Shown: positions 4,024 through 57,179, counted from the first letter of the stretch. The stretch: DNA of 64,000 bases from Promethearchaeota archaeon (GCA_048939625.1 JBHLPH010000009.1:16400-80399), one strand, 5' to 3'. A program made the numbers and translations. Notes: a model not told the origin generated them from the sequence alone.

Positions 4024-4685
4024 ATTCCCAAAGCCCACTTAGTATTTTCAATTAATGATTCTACGTGAGGTGCTAAATGTTCGTAAAGCGAGTTATAGAA
4101 CACAGTCGGAAGAATTCTAAGAACTTTGAAAATTCTATTTAGTAATGCACTCATCACTGGTTCGAGAAGTTCTGGGCGATTGTTAATTTGAGAGGTTAAT
4201 ACTGCATCAATTGCGGCTTCTTCAGCAAGGCCATCAATAAGCCTATAAATTGGTCCATTACATTCAAGAAAATAGGGGAGTCCTTGTTCATCATAGAGGA
4301 CAATGATACCCAATTTATCGACTATTAATTTTGTATACCAATCGATGCTCGAATCTTTAGCCGAGAAAGACTTTTGAAAAAGTGGTTCTGCGGGTTTACG
4401 TTTTGTGGTCTTCGAGGTTTGTGATGAGAAATAACTGCGTGGAACATTATTGGGGTATGTATTAGGGTGGCGGAAAGCAATGTAAGTAGCAGCTGCAAAA
4501 AGGGCTTCCGGTTCTCGACCAATAGCTTGATTTCCCAGGTGACTAGCAAGAATGCGGAGAGAGGGAAGAATCAGATCTTGACGGACTTGTTTAGCGGCAT
4601 ATAGACGATACGCTTGCTTGAGATGGACTGCAGGAGTCTTCAAGTCCGGTCGTACAGTTTCATCGGTTCTAGCCTTTGATGCCAA
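4020..4685 (-). CDS. Hypothetical protein with a TFIIB/cyclin-box-like segment
   Basis: GREPEALFAAATYIAFR resembles the cyclin-repeat motif [17 protein letters not shown] of this window's TFB. Confidence 0.6.
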   Translation of the reverse strand: MASKARTDETVRPDLKTPAVHLKQAYRLYAAKQVRQDLILPSLRILASHLGNQAIGREPEALFAAATYIAFRHPNTYPNNVPRSYFSSQTSKTTKRKPAEPLFQKSFSAKDSSIDWYTKLIVDKLGIIVLYDEQGLPYFLECNGPIYRLIDGLAEEAAIDAVLTSQINNRPELLEPVMSALLNRIFKVLRILPTVFYNSLYEHLAPHVESLIENTKWALGI

Positions 4686-23778: not shown

Positions 23779-24615
23779 ATGACTTCGACGGGAAAGACTT
23801 TGTCAAAACCACGATTCTCTATTGATGATAAGATATGGCTCCGCCAATCCCCTTCTCTCGAAGAGGCCAGTGTATTAATTCAAAATGCAATTTCACAAAA
23901 ACGTTTCATCCTAATTATTGGAGTTTGTTTTGTTGAGTACCAGGGGCGAGCCCGTTCAATTCTAACTGAAGGGGAACGCCTTGTTCTCATAAAACGGGAT
24001 GGCACGATACTTGTGCATAAGGAAAGTGGGGTTGAACCATTAAATTGGCAACCGCCTGGTGCAACAATGAAAGTCACATACGAGGAGGATACTCTCATTC
24101 TTTATGCTAATCGTGCTAAACCCCGTGAAACTGTTCGTATTGAATTTTCCTCCCTCACAATGCTAAGTGCTAGCCTGTTAGATGATCCAGGTGAATTCAG
24201 TATGTATCTAACTGAAGATGAAATGCAACAGGTTCTTAGCACCCACCCCGAACTTATTGAGCCTGGTCTCCGGACCATTGGTCGAGAGCGTCAAGTCGCT
24301 CCCGGGTTCATTGATATATTTGCTCGCGATAGTGACGGACGTTTAGTGATTATTGAGGTGAAGCGCCGTCGAGCTGACAGCGAAGCAGTGCACCAACTTC
24401 ATGGCTATCTCAAAAGCTTTCAGAGTGAAGAGGGTACAGATATCCGAGGAATACTTGTTGCTCCAAGTCTTACTAAAGGTACTTTCACACTCTTAGAACA
24501 ACTTGGTTTGGAATATCGCAAAATTGAACCACAACAATGTGCAGCATATCTGCTTCAGAATAGTTCACATAAACTAACCGATTTCATTGCAAATTCGGAA
24601 CCAGACGAAGGCTAG
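23779..24615 (+). CDS. nucS: Endonuclease NucS/EndoMS
   Basis: YQGRARS, KRDGTILVH, P.NWQPPG, IDI..D..IIEVKR, QL..Y. Confidence 0.95.
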   Translation: MTSTGKTLSKPRFSIDDKIWLRQSPSLEEASVLIQNAISQKRFILIIGVCFVEYQGRARSILTEGERLVLIKRDGTILVHKESGVEPLNWQPPGATMKVTYEEDTLILYANRAKPRETVRIEFSSLTMLSASLLDDPGEFSMYLTEDEMQQVLSTHPELIEPGLRTIGRERQVAPGFIDIFARDSDGRLVIIEVKRRRADSEAVHQLHGYLKSFQSEEGTDIRGILVAPSLTKGTFTLLEQLGLEYRKIEPQQCAAYLLQNSSHKLTDFIANSEPDEG

Positions 24616-25327: not shown

Positions 25328-28300
25328 ATGCCGGTTTCAGAGCTCCCAAAGAAATTCGATATTCCTTCCTTAGAACAGGAGATACTGCAGTTCTGGAAGA
25401 AACACCAAGTGTATGAAAAAGTCACTGAACTACTTCGTGATCGTCCTATCTTCCAATTCCTGGATGGTCCACCCTATACAACTGGTGCCATTCACCTTGG
25501 AACAGCTTGGAACAAGATCATGAAAGATTTAATTCTAAGGTATCACCGAATGCGAGGTTTTCGAGTTATCGATACACCGGGATATGACATGCATGGATTA
25601 CCCATAGAGGTTCATGTTGAGAAAGAGCTGGGAGTTAAATCGAAACTTGATATTGAAAAGACAATTGGAGTTGACAAATTCATCCAAAGGTGTCAAGAAT
25701 TTGCGCTCTCAAATTTAGATACTATGACGAAGCAATTTCAGCGATTAGGAGTTTGGATGGATTGGAATCGTCCTTACCGAACAATAGATAATCCCTACAT
25801 TGAAGGAACTTGGTACTTGATGAAAAAGGCCCATGAACGCGGTTTCCTGTACCGGGGGTTGCGTTCTATTGATTGTTGTGTTCGGTGTGAAACAGCCATT
25901 GCGAAACGAGAACATGAGTATCATACCATTGAAGATTATTCAATTTGGGTTAAGTTCCCGATTGTTGATCGACCAAACGAATTCATAGTCATTTGGACCA
26001 CAACGCCTTGGACGTTACCGGCTAATATGGGCGTAATGGTCAATCCCGACTTCGAATATGTCAGAATTCGTGTGGATGATGAAGTATGGATTCTCGCAAA
26101 AGGACTTGCAAATGTTATTCTCCAAGCACTCTTAGACAAATCTTACGAAGTTCTTGAAGTAGTAAAAGGCTCAGATCTTCTCGGTCTCCGCTATAAACAT
26201 CCCTTGACAGAGGAAGTTCCTCGTCAAGCAGAATTCCATCAAGAATATACTAAAGTGCATTCTATTGTTCTAAGCGATGAATATGTTACTCTAGAACAAG
26301 GAACAGGTCTAGTTCACATGGCGCCTGGACATGGTCCCCAAGACTTTGAAGTGGGTGAACGGGAAGAAATTCCTATTTTCTGTCCAGTTACGCTTTCTGG
26401 TGTTTTTTCAAAGGATGGTGGAAAATACGCAGGGATGAAGGTTCAAGAAGCCAATGAAGTAATTCTTACTGATCTACGAAAGAAAGGCCTGCTAGTTCAC
26501 CAAGATACCATTGAGCACGAATACGCTCACTGCTGGCGATGTGGTAGCCCATTAGTCTATCTCGCTACAGATCAATGGTTCTTACGGGTGAGCGACCTTC
26601 GTAACGAGATAATCAAAAAGAATGAGGGTGTCCGATGGATACCTGATTGGGCAGGGCATACATGGTTTCGAAACTGGGTGCAAAATCTTCGGGATTGGTG
26701 TATATCACGACAACGTTATTGGGGCTCACCTCTACCCATTTGGACCTGCGATAAATGCGATCATATCGAAGTTATCGGTAGTGCAGACGAATTAGCTGAA
26801 AAAAGTGGAAAGGTTGTTGAAAACCTTCATAAACCCTGGATTGATGAACCAACCTGGGGCTGTCCAAAATGTAAGGGTACAATGTCCCGGGTTCGCGATG
26901 TTTTAGATGTGTGGTTAGAAAGTGGATCTGCACCTTGGGCCACACGGTGGGCAACATATGGCACGAAAGATTTTGACAATTGGGAAACAGCGGAATTTAT
27001 CATTGAAGGCAAGGATCAAGTTAGCAGTTGGTTCAACACGCTCTTCAACTCAACTATGCTAGTTTCAGATCGAGAACCTTACAGAAACGTGTATATGCAT
27101 GGATTCACCACCGATGAACATGGGCGACCGATGTCAAAATCAAAGGGTGTTGGAGTATTACCCGATGAAATAGTAGAGAAAGTAGGCGCAGAGACTCTCC
27201 GAATCTACAGCATCAAAAGTACCAGTCCCGGTGAAGACATGCATTTTCTATGGAAAGATGTTGAGGATACACGACGAAGCCTATCGATTTTATGGAACGT
27301 CTACGTTTTTGCTACTACTTTCATGAAAGCTGCGAACTACGATCCCAAGAAGCACAAATTTGAACCTAATAAGTTCCAGGATGAGGATCGTTGGATTCTT
27401 TCTCAGCTAAATCACCTCATCGAACAAGTAAGTGAGCGATTGGATAATTACGAATTACCATATGTCCCTCGGTTGATGGAAGACTTCATAGTCCGTGATC
27501 TTAGTCGATGGTATATCAAACTCATTCGTCCGAGAACTTGGATAAGCTCTAAAGATGAAACCAAAACTGCTGCATTCACAACGTTATACCATGTATTACG
27601 TACGCTTCTGAGAGTTCTTGCTCCAGTTTTACCGTTTTTAACAGAGAAGATGTATCAGACACTTGTTCGTTCTGTCGAACCTGATGCACCAATTAGTGTT
27701 CATATGCTCTCTTGGCCGTCTTCGGATTCGAAATTAATTGATCCCGAATTAAGCCAAGAAATGGAGTGGGTATCTGAAATCGTTGAAACCACACAGTATA
27801 TTCGCCAAGAAGAAGGGATAAAACTGCGGTGGCCTTGTCAACGCCTAATAATAGTACCATCAAAGAAGGAATTTCAATTAGACCACTTTAGCGAAGTTGT
27901 CGCCAATCAAACTAATGTTAAAACCGTAGATATTCAGAAAAGCGCAAAGGGGAAATCATTGAAAGAGAAGGAACTTTCCTTTGCTACATTATATCTTGAT
28001 ATATCAGAATCTCCTGAACTCCGCGCCGAACGCCTTTCCCGAGATTTAATCCGTCAAATCCAAGCCACTAGAAAAAGGGAAGGTCTTCACGTGACACAAA
28101 ACATCGAGCTCTATGTAGCATCTCCTTCAGAGGATATTAGACAGGCGATAAAGGATATGAGTGAAGCCATCTCAACGAAAGTAGGAGCAATTAAGTTGAG
28201 TATTAATGAAAGTATACCTGAGATAGCAAAAGCTGCTAAAGGAAAACTAACATTCAATGACCTTGAAATTAGCTTCACCTTTATCGTACAAAAGGAATAG
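25328..28300 (+). CDS. ileS: Isoleucyl-tRNA synthetase
   Basis: DGPPY, HLGT (HIGH-like), WTTTPWTLPAN, GTGLVHMAPGHG, WCISRQRYWG, PMSKS. Confidence 0.97.
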   Translation: MPVSELPKKFDIPSLEQEILQFWKKHQVYEKVTELLRDRPIFQFLDGPPYTTGAIHLGTAWNKIMKDLILRYHRMRGFRVIDTPGYDMHGLPIEVHVEKELGVKSKLDIEKTIGVDKFIQRCQEFALSNLDTMTKQFQRLGVWMDWNRPYRTIDNPYIEGTWYLMKKAHERGFLYRGLRSIDCCVRCETAIAKREHEYHTIEDYSIWVKFPIVDRPNEFIVIWTTTPWTLPANMGVMVNPDFEYVRIRVDDEVWILAKGLANVILQALLDKSYEVLEVVKGSDLLGLRYKHPLTEEVPRQAEFHQEYTKVHSIVLSDEYVTLEQGTGLVHMAPGHGPQDFEVGEREEIPIFCPVTLSGVFSKDGGKYAGMKVQEANEVILTDLRKKGLLVHQDTIEHEYAHCWRCGSPLVYLATDQWFLRVSDLRNEIIKKNEGVRWIPDWAGHTWFRNWVQNLRDWCISRQRYWGSPLPIWTCDKCDHIEVIGSADELAEKSGKVVENLHKPWIDEPTWGCPKCKGTMSRVRDVLDVWLESGSAPWATRWATYGTKDFDNWETAEFIIEGKDQVSSWFNTLFNSTMLVSDREPYRNVYMHGFTTDEHGRPMSKSKGVGVLPDEIVEKVGAETLRIYSIKSTSPGEDMHFLWKDVEDTRRSLSILWNVYVFATTFMKAANYDPKKHKFEPNKFQDEDRWILSQLNHLIEQVSERLDNYELPYVPRLMEDFIVRDLSRWYIKLIRPRTWISSKDETKTAAFTTLYHVLRTLLRVLAPVLPFLTEKMYQTLVRSVEPDAPISVHMLSWPSSDSKLIDPELSQEMEWVSEIVETTQYIRQEEGIKLRWPCQRLIIVPSKKEFQLDHFSEVVANQTNVKTVDIQKSAKGKSLKEKELSFATLYLDISESPELRAERLSRDLIRQIQATRKREGLHVTQNIELYVASPSEDIRQAIKDMSEAISTKVGAIKLSINESIPEIAKAAKGKLTFNDLEISFTFIVQKE

Positions 28301-28310
28301 GTGTGCCAAT

Positions 28311-28320
28311 ACATTTAAGC
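28311..28320 (+). promoter_or_regulatory. Putative TATA box of the tRNA gene
   Basis: ACATTTAAGC about 30 nt upstream of the tRNA 5' end. Confidence 0.45.
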
Positions 28321-28377
28321 TAAGGGAAATTATCTCAACTTCCATAAGGGCACGTGGCTTAGCCTGATGGAGCGCCG

Positions 28378-28408
28378 AACTACCGCGCTTAACGCGTGGA
28401 GTGTGTAT
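28378..28408 (+). other. tRNA intron 1 (non-canonical position 29/30, 31 nt, relaxed BHB)
   Basis: Central helix GCGC/GTGT, bulges CG^A and AT^G, intron stem ACT..CGCG-CTTAA-CGCG..AGT. Confidence 0.75.
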
Positions 28409-28416
28409 GCCTTATA

Positions 28417-28454
28417 TGGAGTCGCTCCGAACATTCGTTTGCGAAACCTAGGTA
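28417..28454 (+). other. tRNA intron 2 (canonical position 37/38, 38 nt, BHB)
   Basis: Central helix CTTA/TAGG, bulges TA^T and TA^A, intron stem GG..CGC/GCG..CC, exon helix CCGGC/GCCGG once intron 1 is removed. Confidence 0.8.
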
Positions 28455-28496
28455 AGCCGGAGGTCGCGGGTTTGAATCCCGCCGTGCCCACCACTC

Positions 28497-30029
28497 TTAT
28501 TTGGATTTTCCTTTTCTTCTCTGTTCAAATTTCTTAGCCACTGTTTCGAAGTCTTCACCGAAAGCAGTTTCTTTGGTTTTCCGTTCACGCACTTGAATAA
28601 AGACAGGGTATCGCGTAGCTTGCCCTACTACTAATGCTTCTCCTACACTGAGGCTTGAAATCGATGTTAAGGTTGCTTTAGTGATTTTTTCAGAAGTAGC
28701 TCTTATGTGATCTAAGTCATATGGATTAGTAATTCGAAGAAAAATATTCGAACCACATTGTGAAAGAACCGTTGTTGAGAGTCGAACAGGTCGTTGGGAA
28801 ATTACACACAAGGAGAGGCTGTATTTTCGACCCTCCCGAGCAATGGTTTCAAGAATACCCTTTGAAAAAGCAAGAGCCCGTCGAGCCTCTGGGCAGAATT
28901 GATGGCTTTCTTCAAGAAATACAATTGTAGGGGGAATTTCTTCATCTCGTCGTAAGTCAAAAAGATGACGAAGAATAGCATCCACGATAATCTGCTTCTT
29001 TTGCAAACTCACTGTCTCGCTCATATCGAGAATCACCCCATGACCAGGCTTCATGAGCTTCTTCCATTCCGGGGTTGAAGTCTTTCCGAATAGATTGAGA
29101 CTTTGCAGATTGTCTAACCATCCAAGAAGCGCTTCCCTTGTACGGGTATTAATTGAAGGATCTTTTTCTAAGGCTGATATCAAATCGCTTAAATCATAAG
29201 GTTGTCCTTTTCGGACAGACCGTAGAGTTCTAATTACTCTAGTTAACTCACGAACTTGGATAGTACCCATTTCAGGTGAATAGGTAGCAAAGGCTTTTGC
29301 GTTCATCGCTGGTGTGGCAAGTTCAATTAATGGACTCCGAATTACTACTAACCGTTCCTCAGCATCTTTTCCCCTTATCTCTTGAGATTCTGTTAAACCG
29401 GTATATTCACCATGAACATCAATTACTAAAACTGCTGGACGTCCTTGGCTGGCTTTCCTGGAAAAGAGCTCTTCTAGCATAACAGCAGCAGCATAACTTT
29501 TACCTGCTCCACTCATGGCTAAGAGGGCAACGTGTTTCTGATATAACTTAGTTAAATTGAACAAAGCGGGAACATTATGAAAAAGTAACTGACCAAGATG
29601 AAGGCCATCCTTTTCAAATCCCAGGAAATCAGATAGCAGTTTTGAGTCTGGTGTAGAAACAACTGCACCGGGTGAGGGTGGGTAAGTAATACGTTGAATA
29701 CGCCCTTTCTCAAAAATCCCCAACGGTTTAGCTTGTGCTAAGACATATTCCCACCGATCGATAGGAAAAATTGCTCCAAAGGGTTTTCCTTGGCGCGTAA
29801 ACTCGTGCACGGCATCAACTTGCGAGAAATAACGATTTGTCTTGAAAACCTGTTCGACATGGGCAATTACCACTCCCTCTTCAGTTTCAACTGAAACGTA
29901 CTGTCCAACATGAACGGGTATCTTTCTATCATTATTTAGTTCATCACGTTTTCCGATGACAAAGGATATCTTCTCTGTCGACGGGCCATCTTCTGTGCAT
30001 ACAACAGTTCCAAGTGTTTCCTGGGTCAT
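28497..30029 (-). CDS. herA: HerA bipolar helicase/translocase
   Basis: N-terminal HAS barrel, HVALLAMSGAGKS, DVHGEY, EESHQF, IAREGRKY, SQRP. Confidence 0.93.
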   Translation of the reverse strand: MTQETLGTVVCTEDGPSTEKISFVIGKRDELNNDRKIPVHVGQYVSVETEEGVVIAHVEQVFKTNRYFSQVDAVHEFTRQGKPFGAIFPIDRWEYVLAQAKPLGIFEKGRIQRITYPPSPGAVVSTPDSKLLSDFLGFEKDGLHLGQLLFHNVPALFNLTKLYQKHVALLAMSGAGKSYAAAVMLEELFSRKASQGRPAVLVIDVHGEYTGLTESQEIRGKDAEERLVVIRSPLIELATPAMNAKAFATYSPEMGTIQVRELTRVIRTLRSVRKGQPYDLSDLISALEKDPSINTRTREALLGWLDNLQSLNLFGKTSTPEWKKLMKPGHGVILDMSETVSLQKKQIIVDAILRHLFDLRRDEEIPPTIVFLEESHQFCPEARRALAFSKGILETIAREGRKYSLSLCVISQRPVRLSTTVLSQCGSNIFLRITNPYDLDHIRATSEKITKATLTSISSLSVGEALVVGQATRYPVFIQVRERKTKETAFGEDFETVAKKFEQRRKGKSK

Positions 30030-55583: not shown

Positions 55584-57179
55584 GTGGAAATTAGGTTGGA
55601 GCGCGTTGCTCACGAAATTCTTCAAGCCGCCTTAGCTGGTAAAGTCAATAGCAAGAATGACTTACAGAAGCTGAAACGAAAACTAAGTAAAAAACATAAC
55701 CTTTCACGATTTCCTTCTGATGTCGAAATTCTCAGTTTTGCCACAGAGGAAGAAAAGGAAAAAGTTAGCCACATCCTTCGAAAGAAACCAACACGGACTC
55801 TGTCAGGCATTGTCGTCATTGCGGTAATGACTGAACCAATGGAGTGTCCAGGAAAGTGTATTTACTGCCCCACTAATATCCCAACCGCTCCTAAAGCCTA
55901 CGTAGGCGATGAACCTGCCACATTAAGAGCAAGACAAAGTCAATATGATCCATATCTCCAAGTAACGAGTCGATTAGAGCAACTACAAGCGATGGGTCAC
56001 AGCACAGACAAGATTGAGTTAATTGTGATGGGCGGAACCTTTCTTTCTGCTTCAGATAGTTATCAACAGGAATTTATGAAACGCTGTTTCGATGCAATGA
56101 ACGGATATGAAGCAAAAAATATTGATGAAGCACTGCACCTAGCAGAAAAGGCACCCATCCGTCCTGTTGGAATAACAATCGAAACTCGTCCAGACTACTG
56201 CAAGCAAATTCATGTCGATAAGATGCTCAACTTAGGAACAACCAGAGTTGAATTGGGTGTACAAACAATTTATGATGACATCTATCAAACGGTGTGCCGC
56301 GGTCACACAGTTAAAGATGTCATCAACGCAACCCAACTCGCTAAAGATGCTGGACTGAAAGTATGTTATCATATCATGCCGGGATTACCAGGGTCCTCTA
56401 AGCAACGAGATCAACAAGTCTTCAAAGACATCTTTTCAAGAGAAGAGTTTCAACCTGATTTACTCAAAATATATCCCTGCCTTGTTTTACGGGGTAGTGA
56501 TTTATTCGAAATCTGGCGTAAAGGTGAATACTCGCCTTATTCGACTGAAGAGATTATTGATCTCATTGCGGAAGTCATGCCATTGATTCCTCATTGGGTT
56601 CGAATTCAACGGATGCAGCGAGACATTCCCAAAAAGCTAATCGTAGATGGACCCAATGCTGGAAACCTCACTCAACTTGTTTTTCAGAGAGCAGAAGAGA
56701 GGGGCTACAAAATCCAGACTATCAGATATCGTGAAGTTGGGTACAAACAACGTTCTCAAATCCTGAGGAAACAAGACAGAATCGATATTAAAGCCTTGAA
56801 ACTTCGAGTTGATGAATATTCTGCTTCAAAAGGAACCGAACTTTTTCTCGCTTATGAAAATTCTCAGCAGGACACATTAGTTGGATACTTGCGCCTTCGC
56901 CTTCCTAGTCAGATGGCGCATCGTCCTGAAATAAGATTACAAGACGCAGCCCTTTTAAGGGAATTACATGTCTACGGACAATCTGTTAACCTCGGAAAAA
57001 CCCAAGAAGATGCATGGCAACACCGTGGGGTTGGTGCTCAACTTCTCGCTGCTGCAGAAGAACTAACGCAAGAACATGGTCGCAAACGAATCGTATGTAC
57101 CAGTGGTGTTGGAGCACGAGAATACTATCTTCGACACGGCTATCGCCATGACGGTCCATATATGACCAAAATCCTGTAA
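55584..57179 (+). CDS. elp3: Elp3 tRNA U34 carboxymethyltransferase (radical SAM plus KAT)
   Basis: KPTRTLSG, CPGKCIYCP, MGGTF, ETRPD, RELHVYG, QHRGVG, SGVGAREYY. Confidence 0.95.
   Translation: MEIRLERVAHEILQAALAGKVNSKNDLQKLKRKLSKKHNLSRFPSDVEILSFATEEEKEKVSHILRKKPTRTLSGIVVIAVMTEPMECPGKCIYCPTNIPTAPKAYVGDEPATLRARQSQYDPYLQVTSRLEQLQAMGHSTDKIELIVMGGTFLSASDSYQQEFMKRCFDAMNGYEAKNIDEALHLAEKAPIRPVGITIETRPDYCKQIHVDKMLNLGTTRVELGVQTIYDDIYQTVCRGHTVKDVINATQLAKDAGLKVCYHIMPGLPGSSKQRDQQVFKDIFSREEFQPDLLKIYPCLVLRGSDLFEIWRKGEYSPYSTEEIIDLIAEVMPLIPHWVRIQRMQRDIPKKLIVDGPNAGNLTQLVFQRAEERGYKIQTIRYREVGYKQRSQILRKQDRIDIKALKLRVDEYSASKGTELFLAYENSQQDTLVGYLRLRLPSQMAHRPEIRLQDAALLRELHVYGQSVNLGKTQEDAWQHRGVGAQLLAAAEELTQEHGRKRIVCTSGVGAREYYLRHGYRHDGPYMTKIL

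What the first reader, a model, noticed from the sequence alone, without database searches (positions are those of the whole stretch)
28348..28493. Eukaryote-like tRNA-Ile(UAU) hidden by two introns, directly behind ileS
Seen: removing both introns gives a 77-nt cloverleaf with anticodon loop CU-UAU-AA, a GGGC acceptor start and A73. It starts 47 nt after the ileS stop. Established: most archaea read AUA with tRNA-Ile(CAU) modified to agmatidine by TiaS; UAU anticodons are rare in archaea, whereas eukaryotes use an intron-containing tRNA-Ile(UAU) with intron-dependent pseudouridylation. Inference: this lineage may decode AUA the eukaryotic way.
Basis: partly seen in the sequence, partly recalled or inferred. 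Interest (0 to 1): 0.72.

Follow-up and report, generated by a model that had tools for sequence, protein, structure and literature searches.

The report
Two-intron Asgard tRNA-Ile(UAU), no TiaS
This is a real isoleucine tRNA gene, hidden from standard finders by two introns, that reads the AUA codon with a UAU anticodon in a Hermodarchaeia (Asgard) archaeon whose whole family lacks the usual archaeal enzyme TiaS; a few other archaea are already known to do this, but its anticodon intron carries conserved features that hint at intron-dependent modification.

Summary
Observation confirmed exactly. Window 28348-28493 (+) is a tRNA gene (Rfam RF00005, 39.6 bits) 47 nt after ileS. Removing introns 28378-28408 (position 29/30) and 28417-28454 (37/38) gives a 77-nt cloverleaf with loop CUUAUAA, A73 and encoded CCA. 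Both introns sit in exact bulge-helix-bulge register. Sixteen distinct homologs keep the exons invariant while intron 1 covaries, and one relative lacks intron 1 precisely at the predicted junction.

The genome is an Asgard MAG (Hermodarchaeia). TiaS was not found in any of 19 family genomes, although it is present in 184 of 400 Asgard genomes and in all four archaeal controls. AUA makes up 14.5% of Ile codons.

Homologous ileS-linked UAU genes occur in TiaS-less Odin, Atabey, Borr and LC30 lineages, always with the 37/38 intron.

AUA is very probably read by UAU, but this strategy is already published for Korarchaeum, Nanoarchaeum and ARMAN. The introns are archaeal in type and the partner tRNA is GAU, not AAU. 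This scan has also noted the same thing on other Asgard DNA (76 notes).

New here: the 37/38 intron pairs with the D-arm 3' strand through compensatory changes and carries ACA at intron positions 15-17 in five Asgard lineages. That suggests a Cbf5-type pseudouridylation signal, which is untested.

The parts
25328..28300 (+). ileS, isoleucine-tRNA ligase (990 aa)
   Evidence: TIGR00392 912 bits against a cut-off of 621. The ORF is listed. The same gene lies upstream of the UAU tRNA in every Hermodarchaeial homolog and in LC30, Atabey, Odin, Borr and Undinarchaeota loci.
28312..28319 (+). TATA-box-like element CATTTAAG, about 30 nt upstream of the tRNA 5' end (inferred archaeal promoter)
   Evidence: Sequence. 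A matching CA..TTTAA(G/A) element sits at the same distance in homologs of both genera. Its role as a promoter is an inference.
28348..28377 (+). Exon 1: acceptor 5' strand, D-arm, and anticodon-stem nucleotides 27-29
   Evidence: Rfam alignment. Invariant in the genus.
28369..28374 (+). D-arm 3' strand plus nucleotide 26 (GGAGCG), complementary to intron-2 positions i7-i12
   Evidence: This helix is part of the minimum-free-energy fold of the precursor. Compensatory changes occur across five Asgard lineages and Undinarchaeota.
28378..28408 (+). Intron 1 (31 nt) at position 29/30, a relaxed BHB intron
   Evidence: H helix GCGC/GUGU, bulges CG|A and AU|G, a 3-bp inner helix and no outer helix. 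Eight of the nine inner-helix pairs show double compensatory changes. The intron is absent from L017/L032, which read GCGCCG|GCC.
28409..28416 (+). Exon 2 (GCCUUAUA): anticodon-stem nucleotides 30-31 and loop 32-37; the anticodon UAU is 28413-28415
   Evidence: Invariant in all homologs.
28417..28454 (+). Intron 2 (38 nt) at the canonical position 37/38, a BHB intron
   Evidence: H helix CUUA/UAGG, bulges UA|U and UA|A, inner helix GG/CC, and the anticodon stem as outer helix. Present in every copy of the gene in every lineage examined.
28423..28428 (+). Intron-2 segment CGCUCC (i7-i12) that pairs with the D-arm 3' strand
28431..28433 (+). ACA at intron-2 positions 15-17
   Evidence: At the same intron position in Hermod (both genera), LC30, Atabey, Odin (3 copies) and Borr. 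Not present in Undinarchaeota. Random pattern hits show no such regularity.
28455..28493 (+). Exon 3: A38, anticodon-stem 3' strand, variable loop AGGUC, T-arm (loop UUUGAAU), acceptor 3' strand, A73 and encoded CCA (28491-28493)
   Evidence: Acceptor pair 5:68 switches A-U to C-G between the two genera.

Best explanation
The locus is a functional, independently transcribed gene for tRNA-Ile(UAU).

Proposed pathway:
1. The 146-nt primary sequence carries two archaeal bulge-helix-bulge introns. They are removed by the genome's two-gene (probably alpha-beta type) splicing endonuclease, and the exons are then ligated.
2. The result is a 77-nt tRNA with anticodon UAU.
3. The tRNA is charged by the IleRS encoded immediately upstream.
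4. It serves as the dedicated reader of AUA in a lineage that has no TiaS, and so cannot make agmatidine on a CAU tRNA.
5. tRNA-Ile(GAU) reads AUU and AUC.

Shown here: the gene structure, splice junctions, conservation, covariation, the lack of any TiaS match, AUA usage, and the presence of EndA genes.

Inferred: expression, splicing in vivo, charging with isoleucine, that this is the only AUA reader, and whatever modification of U34 prevents AUG misreading.
For: - Rfam tRNA match above the gathering score.
- Cloverleaf after splicing.
- Exact BHB register for both introns.
- Exons are invariant while intron 1 varies with compensatory changes. 97.9% of cells pair, against 31-47% for slid controls, and 9 pairs show double changes, which 0 of 500 shuffles reached.
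- Intron presence/absence polymorphisms at four positions all give the same mature tRNA.
- TiaS not found: 0 of 19 family genomes with PF08489 and no hit with a full-length TiaS in this genome plus 12 congeners. Controls were 4 of 4 positive, and 184 of 400 Asgard genomes are positive.
- AUA is 14.5% of Ile codons, with 17 AUA codons in ileS itself.
- Only one UAU candidate was found in the genome. tRNA-Ile(GAU), the initiator tRNA and one further CAU gene that looks Met-like were also found.
- Two EndA-family genes are present.
- Homologous ileS-linked UAU genes occur only in TiaS-less genomes.
- A TiaS-less f9 genome also has a UAU gene.
- Published precedent in other archaea (PMC6000648, PMC3239211).
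Against: - There are no expression, splicing, charging or modification data.
- The genome is an 87.6% complete MAG, and my tRNA inventory (about 34 genes) is incomplete. A hidden tRNA-Ile(CAU) cannot be excluded.
- The second CAU gene (C46:4125-4308) could not be parsed cleanly by the strict BHB rule.
- Intron 1 has no outer helix, so it needs a broad-specificity endonuclease. The endonuclease type is inferred from gene count only.
- Absence of TiaS means no match to the domain model and to one full-length query in incomplete genomes.
- An unmodified U34 would be expected to misread AUG, so an unknown safeguard has to be assumed.
Confidence: 0.85

Rival explanations
1. The conserved 37/38 intron is more than a spliceable insert. 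Before splicing it refolds the precursor into a roughly 12-level hairpin, formed by the D-arm 3' strand plus the anticodon-stem 5' strand pairing with intron positions i2-i12. The hairpin is capped by the hexaloop UUAUAY and followed by ACA. This mimics the acceptor/T minihelix plus CCA, or an H/ACA P1 helix plus ACA box. It would recruit Cbf5(-Nop10-Gar1) to convert U34 (or U36) to pseudouridine, an archaeal counterpart of the intron-dependent pseudouridylation of eukaryotic tRNA-Ile(UAU). This extends the main explanation rather than replacing it.
For: - The exon-intron helix covaries across lineages: GGAGCG/CGCUCC, GGAGCG/CGCUUC, CAAAGCG/CGCUUUG, AAGAGCG/CGCUCUU, GGGGCG/CGUCCC.
- ACA sits at exactly intron positions 15-17 in five Asgard lineages.
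- The hairpin is the predicted minimum-free-energy fold in six lineages, with z from -1.7 to -4.8, and it is part of the fold of the whole precursor.
- Intron 2 is far more conserved than intron 1.
- Cbf5 is encoded in the genome.
- aCBF5 binds through its PUA domain to CCA, and binds better to ACA (PMC2018633).
- An H/ACA RNP makes pseudouridine 35 in an intron-containing pre-tRNA-Tyr in Sulfolobus (PMC11077068).
- An earlier scan note proposed a hairpin-plus-ACA signal on other DNA.
Against: - The evidence is sequence-based only.
- The hairpin excludes the D-stem and crosses the BHB fold, so two conformers must alternate.
- There is no K-turn and no pseudouridylation pocket.
- The loop has 6 nt rather than the 7 of a T-loop, and it lacks C56.
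- Undinarchaeota has the helix but no ACA, and the f9 intron shows neither feature clearly.
- In Atabey and Odin the same intron segment can also pair within the intron.
- The helix could instead serve folding, splicing order or quality control.
Confidence: 0.2
2. The UAU route in this lineage is homologous by descent with the eukaryotic one. In other words, the archaeal ancestor of eukaryotes already read AUA with an intron-bearing tRNA-Ile(UAU), and eukaryotes inherited it.
For: - The organism is an Asgard archaeon.
- The 37/38 intron is universal in the Asgard UAU genes seen.
- TiaS is missing from many whole Asgard families.
Against: - 184 of 400 Asgard genomes, including whole families at 22/22, 12/12, 6/6 and 27/31, keep TiaS.
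- The same solution arose or persists in Korarchaeum, Nanoarchaeum, ARMAN and a DPANN Undinarchaeota MAG (PMC6000648, PMC3239211), so convergence is easy.
- The partner isoacceptor is GAU, not AAU.
- No phylogeny linking these genes to eukaryotic tRNA-Ile(UAU) was made or is feasible at 77 nt.
Confidence: 0.1
3. The locus is a decaying tRNA pseudogene or a misparsed tRNA of another identity, for example ARAGORN's Gly(ACC) with one 51-nt intron.
For: - ARAGORN with introns allowed gives Gly(ACC).
- Many alternative 1- or 2-intron parses are combinatorially possible.
- T-loop position 56 is U rather than the near-universal C.
Against: - Exons are invariant across 16 distinct sequences while the introns drift.
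- Compensatory changes occur in the acceptor stem and in the intron helix.
- Intron-less and extra-intron variants all restore the same UAU tRNA.
- U56 is matched by A19, so the tertiary Watson-Crick pair is kept.
Confidence: 0.02

Closest known systems
tRNA-Ile(UAU) of TiaS-less archaea: Ca. Korarchaeum cryptofilum, Nanoarchaeum equitans (PMC6000648) and ARMAN-2/-4/-5 (PMC3239211)
   Same: An archaeal tRNA with a UAU anticodon in genomes without TiaS. It carries a canonical 37/38 BHB intron (reported for Korarchaeum and ARMAN). In ARMAN it was proposed to replace the agmatidine route, and the pre-tRNA was cleaved in vitro by the cognate endonuclease.
   Different: Here the host is an Asgard (Hermodarchaeia) lineage, for which I found no report: 'Asgard' with 'TiaS' returns 0 papers. 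There is a second intron at 29/30, and relatives have further introns in the D-loop and at 59/60. The gene is linked to ileS. The 37/38 intron carries a conserved D-arm-complementary segment and a fixed ACA. The Korarchaeum gene resembles its own tRNA-Ile(GAU) (PMC6000648), whereas this one does not resemble the GAU gene of its genome.
Eukaryotic nuclear tRNA-Ile(UAU) with obligatory 37/38 intron and intron-dependent pseudouridines 34 and 36 (my own knowledge; mentioned in PMC6000648)
   Same: A UAU anticodon for AUA, an intron immediately 3' of position 37 in all copies, no cytidine-conjugating enzyme, and a precursor in which the anticodon region pairs with the intron.
   Different: The introns are archaeal BHB introns cut by an archaeal EndA, and extra introns sit at non-canonical positions. 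The partner isoacceptor is GAU rather than AAU/IAU. The modifying enzyme and the modification are unknown. The sequence hints here point to a Cbf5-type enzyme rather than a Pus1-type enzyme.
Mycoplasma mobile tRNA-Ile(UAU) (PMC3575796)
   Same: A prokaryote lacking the cytidine-modifying enzyme (TilS there) that reads AUA with a UAU tRNA.
   Different: That system is bacterial and has no intron. Any adaptations of IleRS or the ribosome were not examined here.
Heavily interrupted Asgard tRNA genes (PMC11291895; bioRxiv 10.64898/2026.10.13.758758)
   Same: Multiple BHB introns per gene at non-canonical positions, missed by standard annotators, with gains and losses between close relatives.
   Different: Those studies concern Atabey, Freyr and Jord lineages and intron burden. 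A term search found no mention of Ile, UAU, AUA or Hermodarchaeia in the preprint.

Membership tests
tRNA (Rfam RF00005) | Cloverleaf sequence and structure scoring above the curated gathering score | tested here: met
   39.6 bits against 29, model positions 1-71 of 71. The spliced sequence accepts the cloverleaf.
Archaeal BHB (bulge-helix-bulge) tRNA intron | A 4-bp central helix flanked by two 3-nt bulges on opposite strands, with splice sites after the second bulge nucleotide | tested here: met
   Intron 2: CUUA/UAGG with bulges UA|U and UA|A. Intron 1: GCGC/GUGU with bulges CG|A and AU|G. The helices are conserved.
Archaeal BHB (bulge-helix-bulge) tRNA intron | Strict hBHBh' form, with flanking outer and inner helices of at least 2 bp | tested here: inconclusive
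   Intron 2 is met: inner helix GG/CC, and the anticodon stem as outer helix. Intron 1 has a covarying inner helix but no outer helix in register, so it is a relaxed form.
Archaeal BHB (bulge-helix-bulge) tRNA intron | A splicing endonuclease able to cut relaxed or non-canonical sites is encoded | tested here: inconclusive
   Two PF01974 genes, in open frames of 188 and 202 aa, are present. This is compatible with an alpha-beta heterotetramer, but subunit type and activity were not tested.
TiaS-independent AUA decoding by tRNA-Ile(UAU), as in Korarchaeum, Nanoarchaeum and ARMAN | Mature anticodon UAU | tested here: met
   Loop CUUAUAA after removal of both introns. An independent junction comes from an intron-1-less relative.
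TiaS-independent AUA decoding by tRNA-Ile(UAU), as in Korarchaeum, Nanoarchaeum and ARMAN | No TiaS in the genome | tested here: met
   No match in 19 of 19 family genomes with PF08489 and none with a full-length TiaS in 13 of them. Positive controls were 4 of 4. The genomes are 72-91% complete, so this means 'not found'.
TiaS-independent AUA decoding by tRNA-Ile(UAU), as in Korarchaeum, Nanoarchaeum and ARMAN | No tRNA-Ile2(CAU) | tested here: inconclusive
   Only the initiator tRNA and one Met-like CAU gene were found among about 34 tRNA genes. The inventory and the MAG are incomplete.
TiaS-independent AUA decoding by tRNA-Ile(UAU), as in Korarchaeum, Nanoarchaeum and ARMAN | AUA codons are used as sense codons | tested here: met
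   11.1 per 1000 codons, 14.5% of Ile codons, in 927 long ORFs.
TiaS-independent AUA decoding by tRNA-Ile(UAU), as in Korarchaeum, Nanoarchaeum and ARMAN | Charged with isoleucine by IleRS | not testable with these tools
   Only indirect evidence: A73, and conserved linkage to ileS in six lineages.
Eukaryotic-type AUA decoding | Intron at 37/38 in tRNA-Ile(UAU) | tested here: met
   Present in all copies.
Eukaryotic-type AUA decoding | Partner tRNA-Ile(AAU) read as IAU | tested here: not met
   The other Ile tRNA found is GAU (C36:45954-46058). No AAU gene was seen.
Eukaryotic-type AUA decoding | Intron-dependent pseudouridines at positions 34 and 36 | not testable with these tools
   Only sequence hints: the exon-intron helix and the ACA.
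Box H/ACA RNA or Cbf5 substrate | A basal helix followed by ACA, with the target uridine at a fixed distance | tested here: inconclusive
   A 6-8-bp basal helix, then 2 nt, then ACA. U34 lies 18 nt upstream of the ACA and is the second loop nucleotide.
Box H/ACA RNA or Cbf5 substrate | Pseudouridylation pocket and a K-turn or K-loop in an upper stem | tested here: not met
   The 36-nt hairpin has only a small internal loop and a hexaloop, with no K-turn motif. It is therefore not an H/ACA guide. At most it mimics a stand-alone Cbf5 substrate.

The most novel reading that the evidence does not exclude
The universally retained 37/38 intron of Asgard tRNA-Ile(UAU) is a built-in modification signal. 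By pairing with the D-arm 3' strand it forms a minihelix with a fixed ACA tail that presents U34 in a hexaloop to Cbf5. The wobble uridine is then pseudouridylated only in the precursor, which keeps the tRNA from reading AUG. This would be an archaeal, Cbf5-based counterpart, and possibly a forerunner, of the intron-dependent pseudouridylation of eukaryotic tRNA-Ile(UAU). It would explain why this intron is never lost.
Probability: 0.2. Interest if true: 0.85.

Novelty: new member of a known kind. Interest (0 to 1): 0.55.

Why it matters
AUA is the one sense codon that needs a special trick in every domain of life. Finding that whole Asgard families, roughly half of the 400 genomes searched, lack TiaS extends a strategy known from a handful of small-genome archaea to the closest archaeal relatives of eukaryotes. 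At least Hermod, Odin, Atabey, Borr, LC30 and one f9 genome instead carry an intron-bearing tRNA-Ile(UAU).

It also has practical weight. Standard finders miss or misname this gene, so annotations of these genomes will appear to lack any AUA reader.

If the conserved helix and ACA in the intron prove to be a modification signal, the old question of why tRNA-Ile(UAU) always keeps its intron becomes testable in an archaeal system.

Tried and rejected
1. ARAGORN default found nothing. With introns allowed it gave Gly(ACC) with one 51-nt intron. I rejected that call because it conflicts with the exon/intron conservation and with the intron-less junction.
2. I enumerated all 1- and 2-intron parses. 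Dozens give a 5-bp stem, so the parse cannot rest on the stem alone.
3. A hairpin inside intron 2 (gene positions 71-74 with 78-81) is rejected. Position 73 changes A to U without compensation.
4. I tested the idea that the UAU gene is a C34-to-U derivative of an Asgard tRNA-Ile2(CAU) with the identical anticodon arm. The pattern CCGGCCTCATA..AGCCGG hit only 2 of 400 genomes, so the idea is not supported.
5. A single ileS-tRNA cassette moving as a unit is not supported. The IleRS tree needs at least 3 changes of the linkage label. Odin, Borr and Undinarchaeota fall outside the Hermod+LC30+Atabey group, and long branches make placement unsure.
6. A generic probe for a UAU loop followed by a T-arm, run in five f9 genomes, gave only AT-rich noise. 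The f9 gene was found instead through Rfam loci.
7. A pattern hit in the TiaS-positive genome G028, and scattered hits in f9, f16, f19, f20 and f27, are ordinary coding sequence rather than tRNA.
8. A strict BHB combination search on the second CAU gene (C46:4125-4308) found no clean three-intron parse. Its Met-like arm is read by eye only.
9. The genome search with RF00005 on the window's own genome listed 18 tRNAs and missed this one, so it cannot serve as an inventory.

Full report
**The observation**

Rfam's tRNA model matches 28348-28490 on the + strand over all 71 model positions (39.6 bits, gathering score 29), with an 80-nt jump inside the anticodon arm. The upstream ORF 25328-28300 is ileS (TIGR00392, 912 bits against a cut-off of 621), so the tRNA starts 47 nt after its stop codon. 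Removing 28378-28408 (31 nt) and 28417-28454 (38 nt) leaves 77 nt: GGGC at the 5' end, anticodon arm CCGGC-CUUAUAA-GCCGG, A73 and an encoded CCA. Default ARAGORN misses the gene. With introns allowed it forces one 51-nt intron and calls it Gly(ACC).

**Are the splice sites real?**

Many 1- or 2-intron parses give a 5-bp stem, so I applied the geometry of the archaeal splicing endonuclease: a 4-bp helix, two 3-nt bulges, and a cut after the second bulge nucleotide.
- Intron 2 sits at the canonical 37/38 position. Its helix is CUUA/UAGG, its bulges are UA|U and UA|A, its inner helix is GG/CC, and the anticodon stem is the outer helix.
- Intron 1 sits at 29/30. Its helix is GCGC/GUGU, its bulges are CG|A and AU|G, and it has an inner helix but no outer helix, so it is a relaxed form.

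Four-base-pair matches are common by chance, so the decisive evidence is comparative. The 146-nt locus is found in 14 of 14 genomes of the genus and in the sister genus. Across 16 distinct sequences:
- the exons are invariant within the genus;
- intron 1 drifts, with double compensatory changes in 8 of its 9 inner-helix pairs;
- acceptor pair 5:68 switches A-U to C-G between the genera;
- 97.9% of structure cells pair, against 31-47% when partners are slid by 1-3 columns.

Independently of any motif, relatives differ in which introns they carry. One sister-genus copy (L017/L032) has no 29/30 intron and reads GCGCCG|GCCTTATA, has a D-loop intron instead, and also has a T-loop intron at 59/60. 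L013, L015 and L016 add the 59/60 intron to the two seen here. All versions splice to the same UAU tRNA, and only the 37/38 intron is present in every copy.

**The organism and the AUA problem**

The closest IleRS proteins (68-87% identical) come from Candidatus Hermodarchaeota MAGs, so this is an Asgard archaeon. The genome is a 2.31-Mb MAG, 87.6% complete.

AUA is a working codon: 11.1 per 1000 codons, 14.5% of Ile codons, and 17 in ileS itself.

TiaS was not found:
- The TiaS_FLD domain gives no match in 19 of 19 genomes of the family. It is found in all four archaeal control genomes.
- A full-length four-domain Asgard TiaS finds nothing in this genome or in 12 congeners. It scores E = 1e-116 to 1e-158 in other Asgard families.

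My own tRNA scans, anchored on the acceptor stem, T-arm, D-arm and encoded CCA, recover about 34 genes. They include:
- tRNA-Ile(GAU) with a D-loop intron (C36:45954-46058);
- the initiator tRNA (C36:50592-50669);
- one further CAU gene whose arm looks like an elongator Met (C46:4125-4308), which I could not parse cleanly by the strict rule;
- this single UAU gene.

A hidden tRNA-Ile(CAU) cannot be excluded in an incomplete MAG, but without TiaS it could not read AUA in the known way. Two EndA-family genes are present, as expected where relaxed and non-canonical introns must be cut.

**Wider distribution**

In a 400-genome panel of the phylum, TiaS is present in 184. It is missing from whole families (f1 0/18, f9 0/135, f27 0/14, f15 0/5, f2 0/4, f12 0/3 and others) and near-universal in others (22/22, 12/12, 6/6, 27/31).

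A signature of exon 2, the intron start and exon 3 finds genuine homologs only in TiaS-less families: f1 16/18, f2 4/4, f12 2/3 and f15 2/5. The scattered hits elsewhere are coding sequence.

Named genomes with a UAU gene right after ileS are an LC30 isolate, Ca. Atabeyarchaeum deiterrae, an Odinarchaeota MAG, Ca. Borrarchaeum weybense and a DPANN Undinarchaeota MAG. All five lack TiaS_FLD. A 99%-complete f9 genome also has a tRNA-Ile(UAU), with a longer 37/38 intron. Ca. Baldrarchaeum yapensis has TiaS. A Sifarchaeum MAG, a Thor-labelled MAG, Ca. Harpocratesius repetitus and a Hod-labelled MAG gave no match. Some NCBI labels are unreliable, because MAGs labelled Odin and Thor fall inside Hermodarchaeia.

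On an IleRS tree, the Hermod, LC30 and Atabey proteins that are linked to a UAU gene form one group. Odin, Borr and Undinarchaeota fall elsewhere, so the linkage needs at least three changes and is not one simple mobile cassette.

**What is known already**

tRNA-Ile(UAU) is reported in Ca. Korarchaeum cryptofilum (with one intron) and in Nanoarchaeum equitans, the only two of 167 archaeal genomes in that survey (PMC6000648). The ARMAN archaea have an intron-bearing tRNA-Ile(UAU), lack TiaS and tRNA-Ile(CAU), were explicitly compared to eukaryotes, and their precursor was cut in vitro (PMC3239211).

Heavy interruption of Asgard tRNA genes is documented (PMC11291895; bioRxiv 10.64898/2026.10.13.758758), but I found no mention of Ile, UAU or Hermodarchaeia in the preprint. 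No paper in the library pairs 'Asgard' with 'TiaS'.

This scan's own notes list 76 earlier findings of Asgard tRNA-Ile(UAU) genes without TiaS in at least 60 other genomes. These are AI notes, and I treated them as leads only.

The finding is therefore a new member of a known kind. The eukaryote-like reading is only partly right: the 37/38 intron and the UAU anticodon match, but the introns are archaeal, one is at 29/30, the partner isoacceptor is GAU rather than AAU, and half of the phylum keeps TiaS.

**The unexpected part**

Intron 2 is much better conserved than intron 1, even between Asgard lineages whose IleRS proteins are only about 50% identical.

First, intron positions i7-i12/13 are complementary to the D-arm 3' strand plus nucleotide 26, and the two sides change together:

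| Lineage | D-arm 3' strand | Intron segment |
|---|---|---|
| Hermod | GGAGCG | CGCUCC |
| LC30 | GGAGCG | CGCUUC |
| Atabey | CAAAGCG | CGCUUUG |
| Odin | AAGAGCG | CGCUCUU |
| Borr | GGGGCG | CGUCCC |
| Undinarchaeota | GGAGCGCA | UGCGUUCC |

Second, an ACA sits at exactly intron positions 15-17 in every Asgard copy with this intron type, whereas random pattern hits show no regularity.

The resulting hairpin is the predicted fold in six lineages (z from -1.7 to -4.8) and is part of the minimum-free-energy fold of the whole precursor. It has a basal helix, a small internal loop, closing pairs including C32 with intron G2, and a UUAUAY hexaloop that places U34 as the second loop nucleotide. 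It excludes the D-stem and crosses the splicing fold, so it would have to be an alternative conformer.

About 12 stacked levels followed by a short spacer and ACA resemble the acceptor/T minihelix plus CCA that archaeal Cbf5 modifies without a guide. Supporting points:
- The Cbf5 PUA domain binds ACA better than CCA (PMC2018633).
- An H/ACA RNP is known to make pseudouridine 35 in an intron-containing pre-tRNA-Tyr (PMC11077068).
- Cbf5 is encoded in this genome.

An earlier scan note had proposed a hairpin-plus-ACA signal on other DNA. I tested its two components here and added the exon-intron covariation. This remains a hypothesis at about 20%. There is no K-turn or pocket, the loop is not a T-loop, Undinarchaeota lacks the ACA, and the f9 intron differs.

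**Verdict**

The best explanation, at about 85%, is that this is the functional AUA-reading tRNA of a TiaS-less Asgard family. Novelty: a new member of a known kind, with a possibly new intron-borne signal that deserves a bench test.

Noticed in passing
window 28367 and 28473: The D-loop reads AGCCUGAUG and the T-loop reads UUUGAAU. The near-universal tertiary pair G19:C56 is therefore replaced by A19:U56. Both columns are invariant in all Hermodarchaeial copies, whereas the LC30 copy keeps G19:C56.
   Followed up: partly
window 28356-28408: A second, strong BHB-like arrangement (helix GCAC/GUGU, 4-bp inner helix, 6-bp outer helix formed with the 5' leader) shares the 3' splice site of intron 1. 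It would delete the D-arm. It may be chance or a leader-exon pairing in the precursor.
   Followed up: no
G000, about 30 tRNA genes (e.g. C9:114634-114710, C36:45804-45878): Every genuine tRNA gene found in this genome encodes its 3' CCA. That served as a useful discriminator for finding hidden tRNA genes.
   Followed up: partly
G000:C46:133-4308 and G000:C19:22797-23813: One EndA-family gene (C46:2767-3027) lies inside a cluster of intron-rich tRNA genes (Asp, Tyr, Thr and the three-intron CAU gene). Cbf5 (C19:22797-23648) lies right next to tRNA-Ser(GGA).
   Followed up: no
L093 (Candidatus Undinarchaeota MAG, CAZMMZ010000002.1), about 4438-4551: A DPANN archaeon also has a tRNA-Ile(UAU) with a single 37/38 intron directly after ileS and no TiaS_FLD match. 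Its intron pairs with the D-arm 3' strand over 8 bp but has no ACA at positions 15-17.
   Followed up: partly
L164 (G026:C86, minus strand, about 57016-57171): The largest TiaS-less Asgard family (f9, 0/135) has a tRNA-Ile(UAU) with arm CAGGU-CUUAUAA-GCCUG, a 37/38 intron of about 50 nt and a second insert before the T-arm. Its intron does not show the D-arm complement clearly.
   Followed up: partly
L027, L031, L064, L048 (records JBHLQC010000042.1, JBHLSA010000005.1, JBHLLI010000030.1, JBHLKA010000114.1): Several MAG records carry phylum labels that disagree with their IleRS and tRNA. An 'Odinarchaeota' and a 'Thorarchaeota' record sit inside Hermodarchaeia. A 'Hermodarchaeota' and a 'Hodarchaeota' record sit in one tight clade with a Thor-labelled MAG.
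   Followed up: partly
window 23779-24615 and 28497-30029: The neighbours are an endonuclease NucS gene (NF003270, 275 bits) two genes upstream and a convergent HerA/FtsK-like ATPase (weak HerA model matches, far below cut-off) that ends 3 nt after the tRNA's CCA.
   Followed up: no
G000:C46:4125-4308 (minus strand): A 184-nt tRNA gene has inserts in the anticodon loop and the T-loop. By eye, its arm would splice to CCAGA-CUCAUAA-UCUGG. The strict BHB rule finds no clean combination, so at least one of its introns is relaxed or my parse is wrong.
   Followed up: partly
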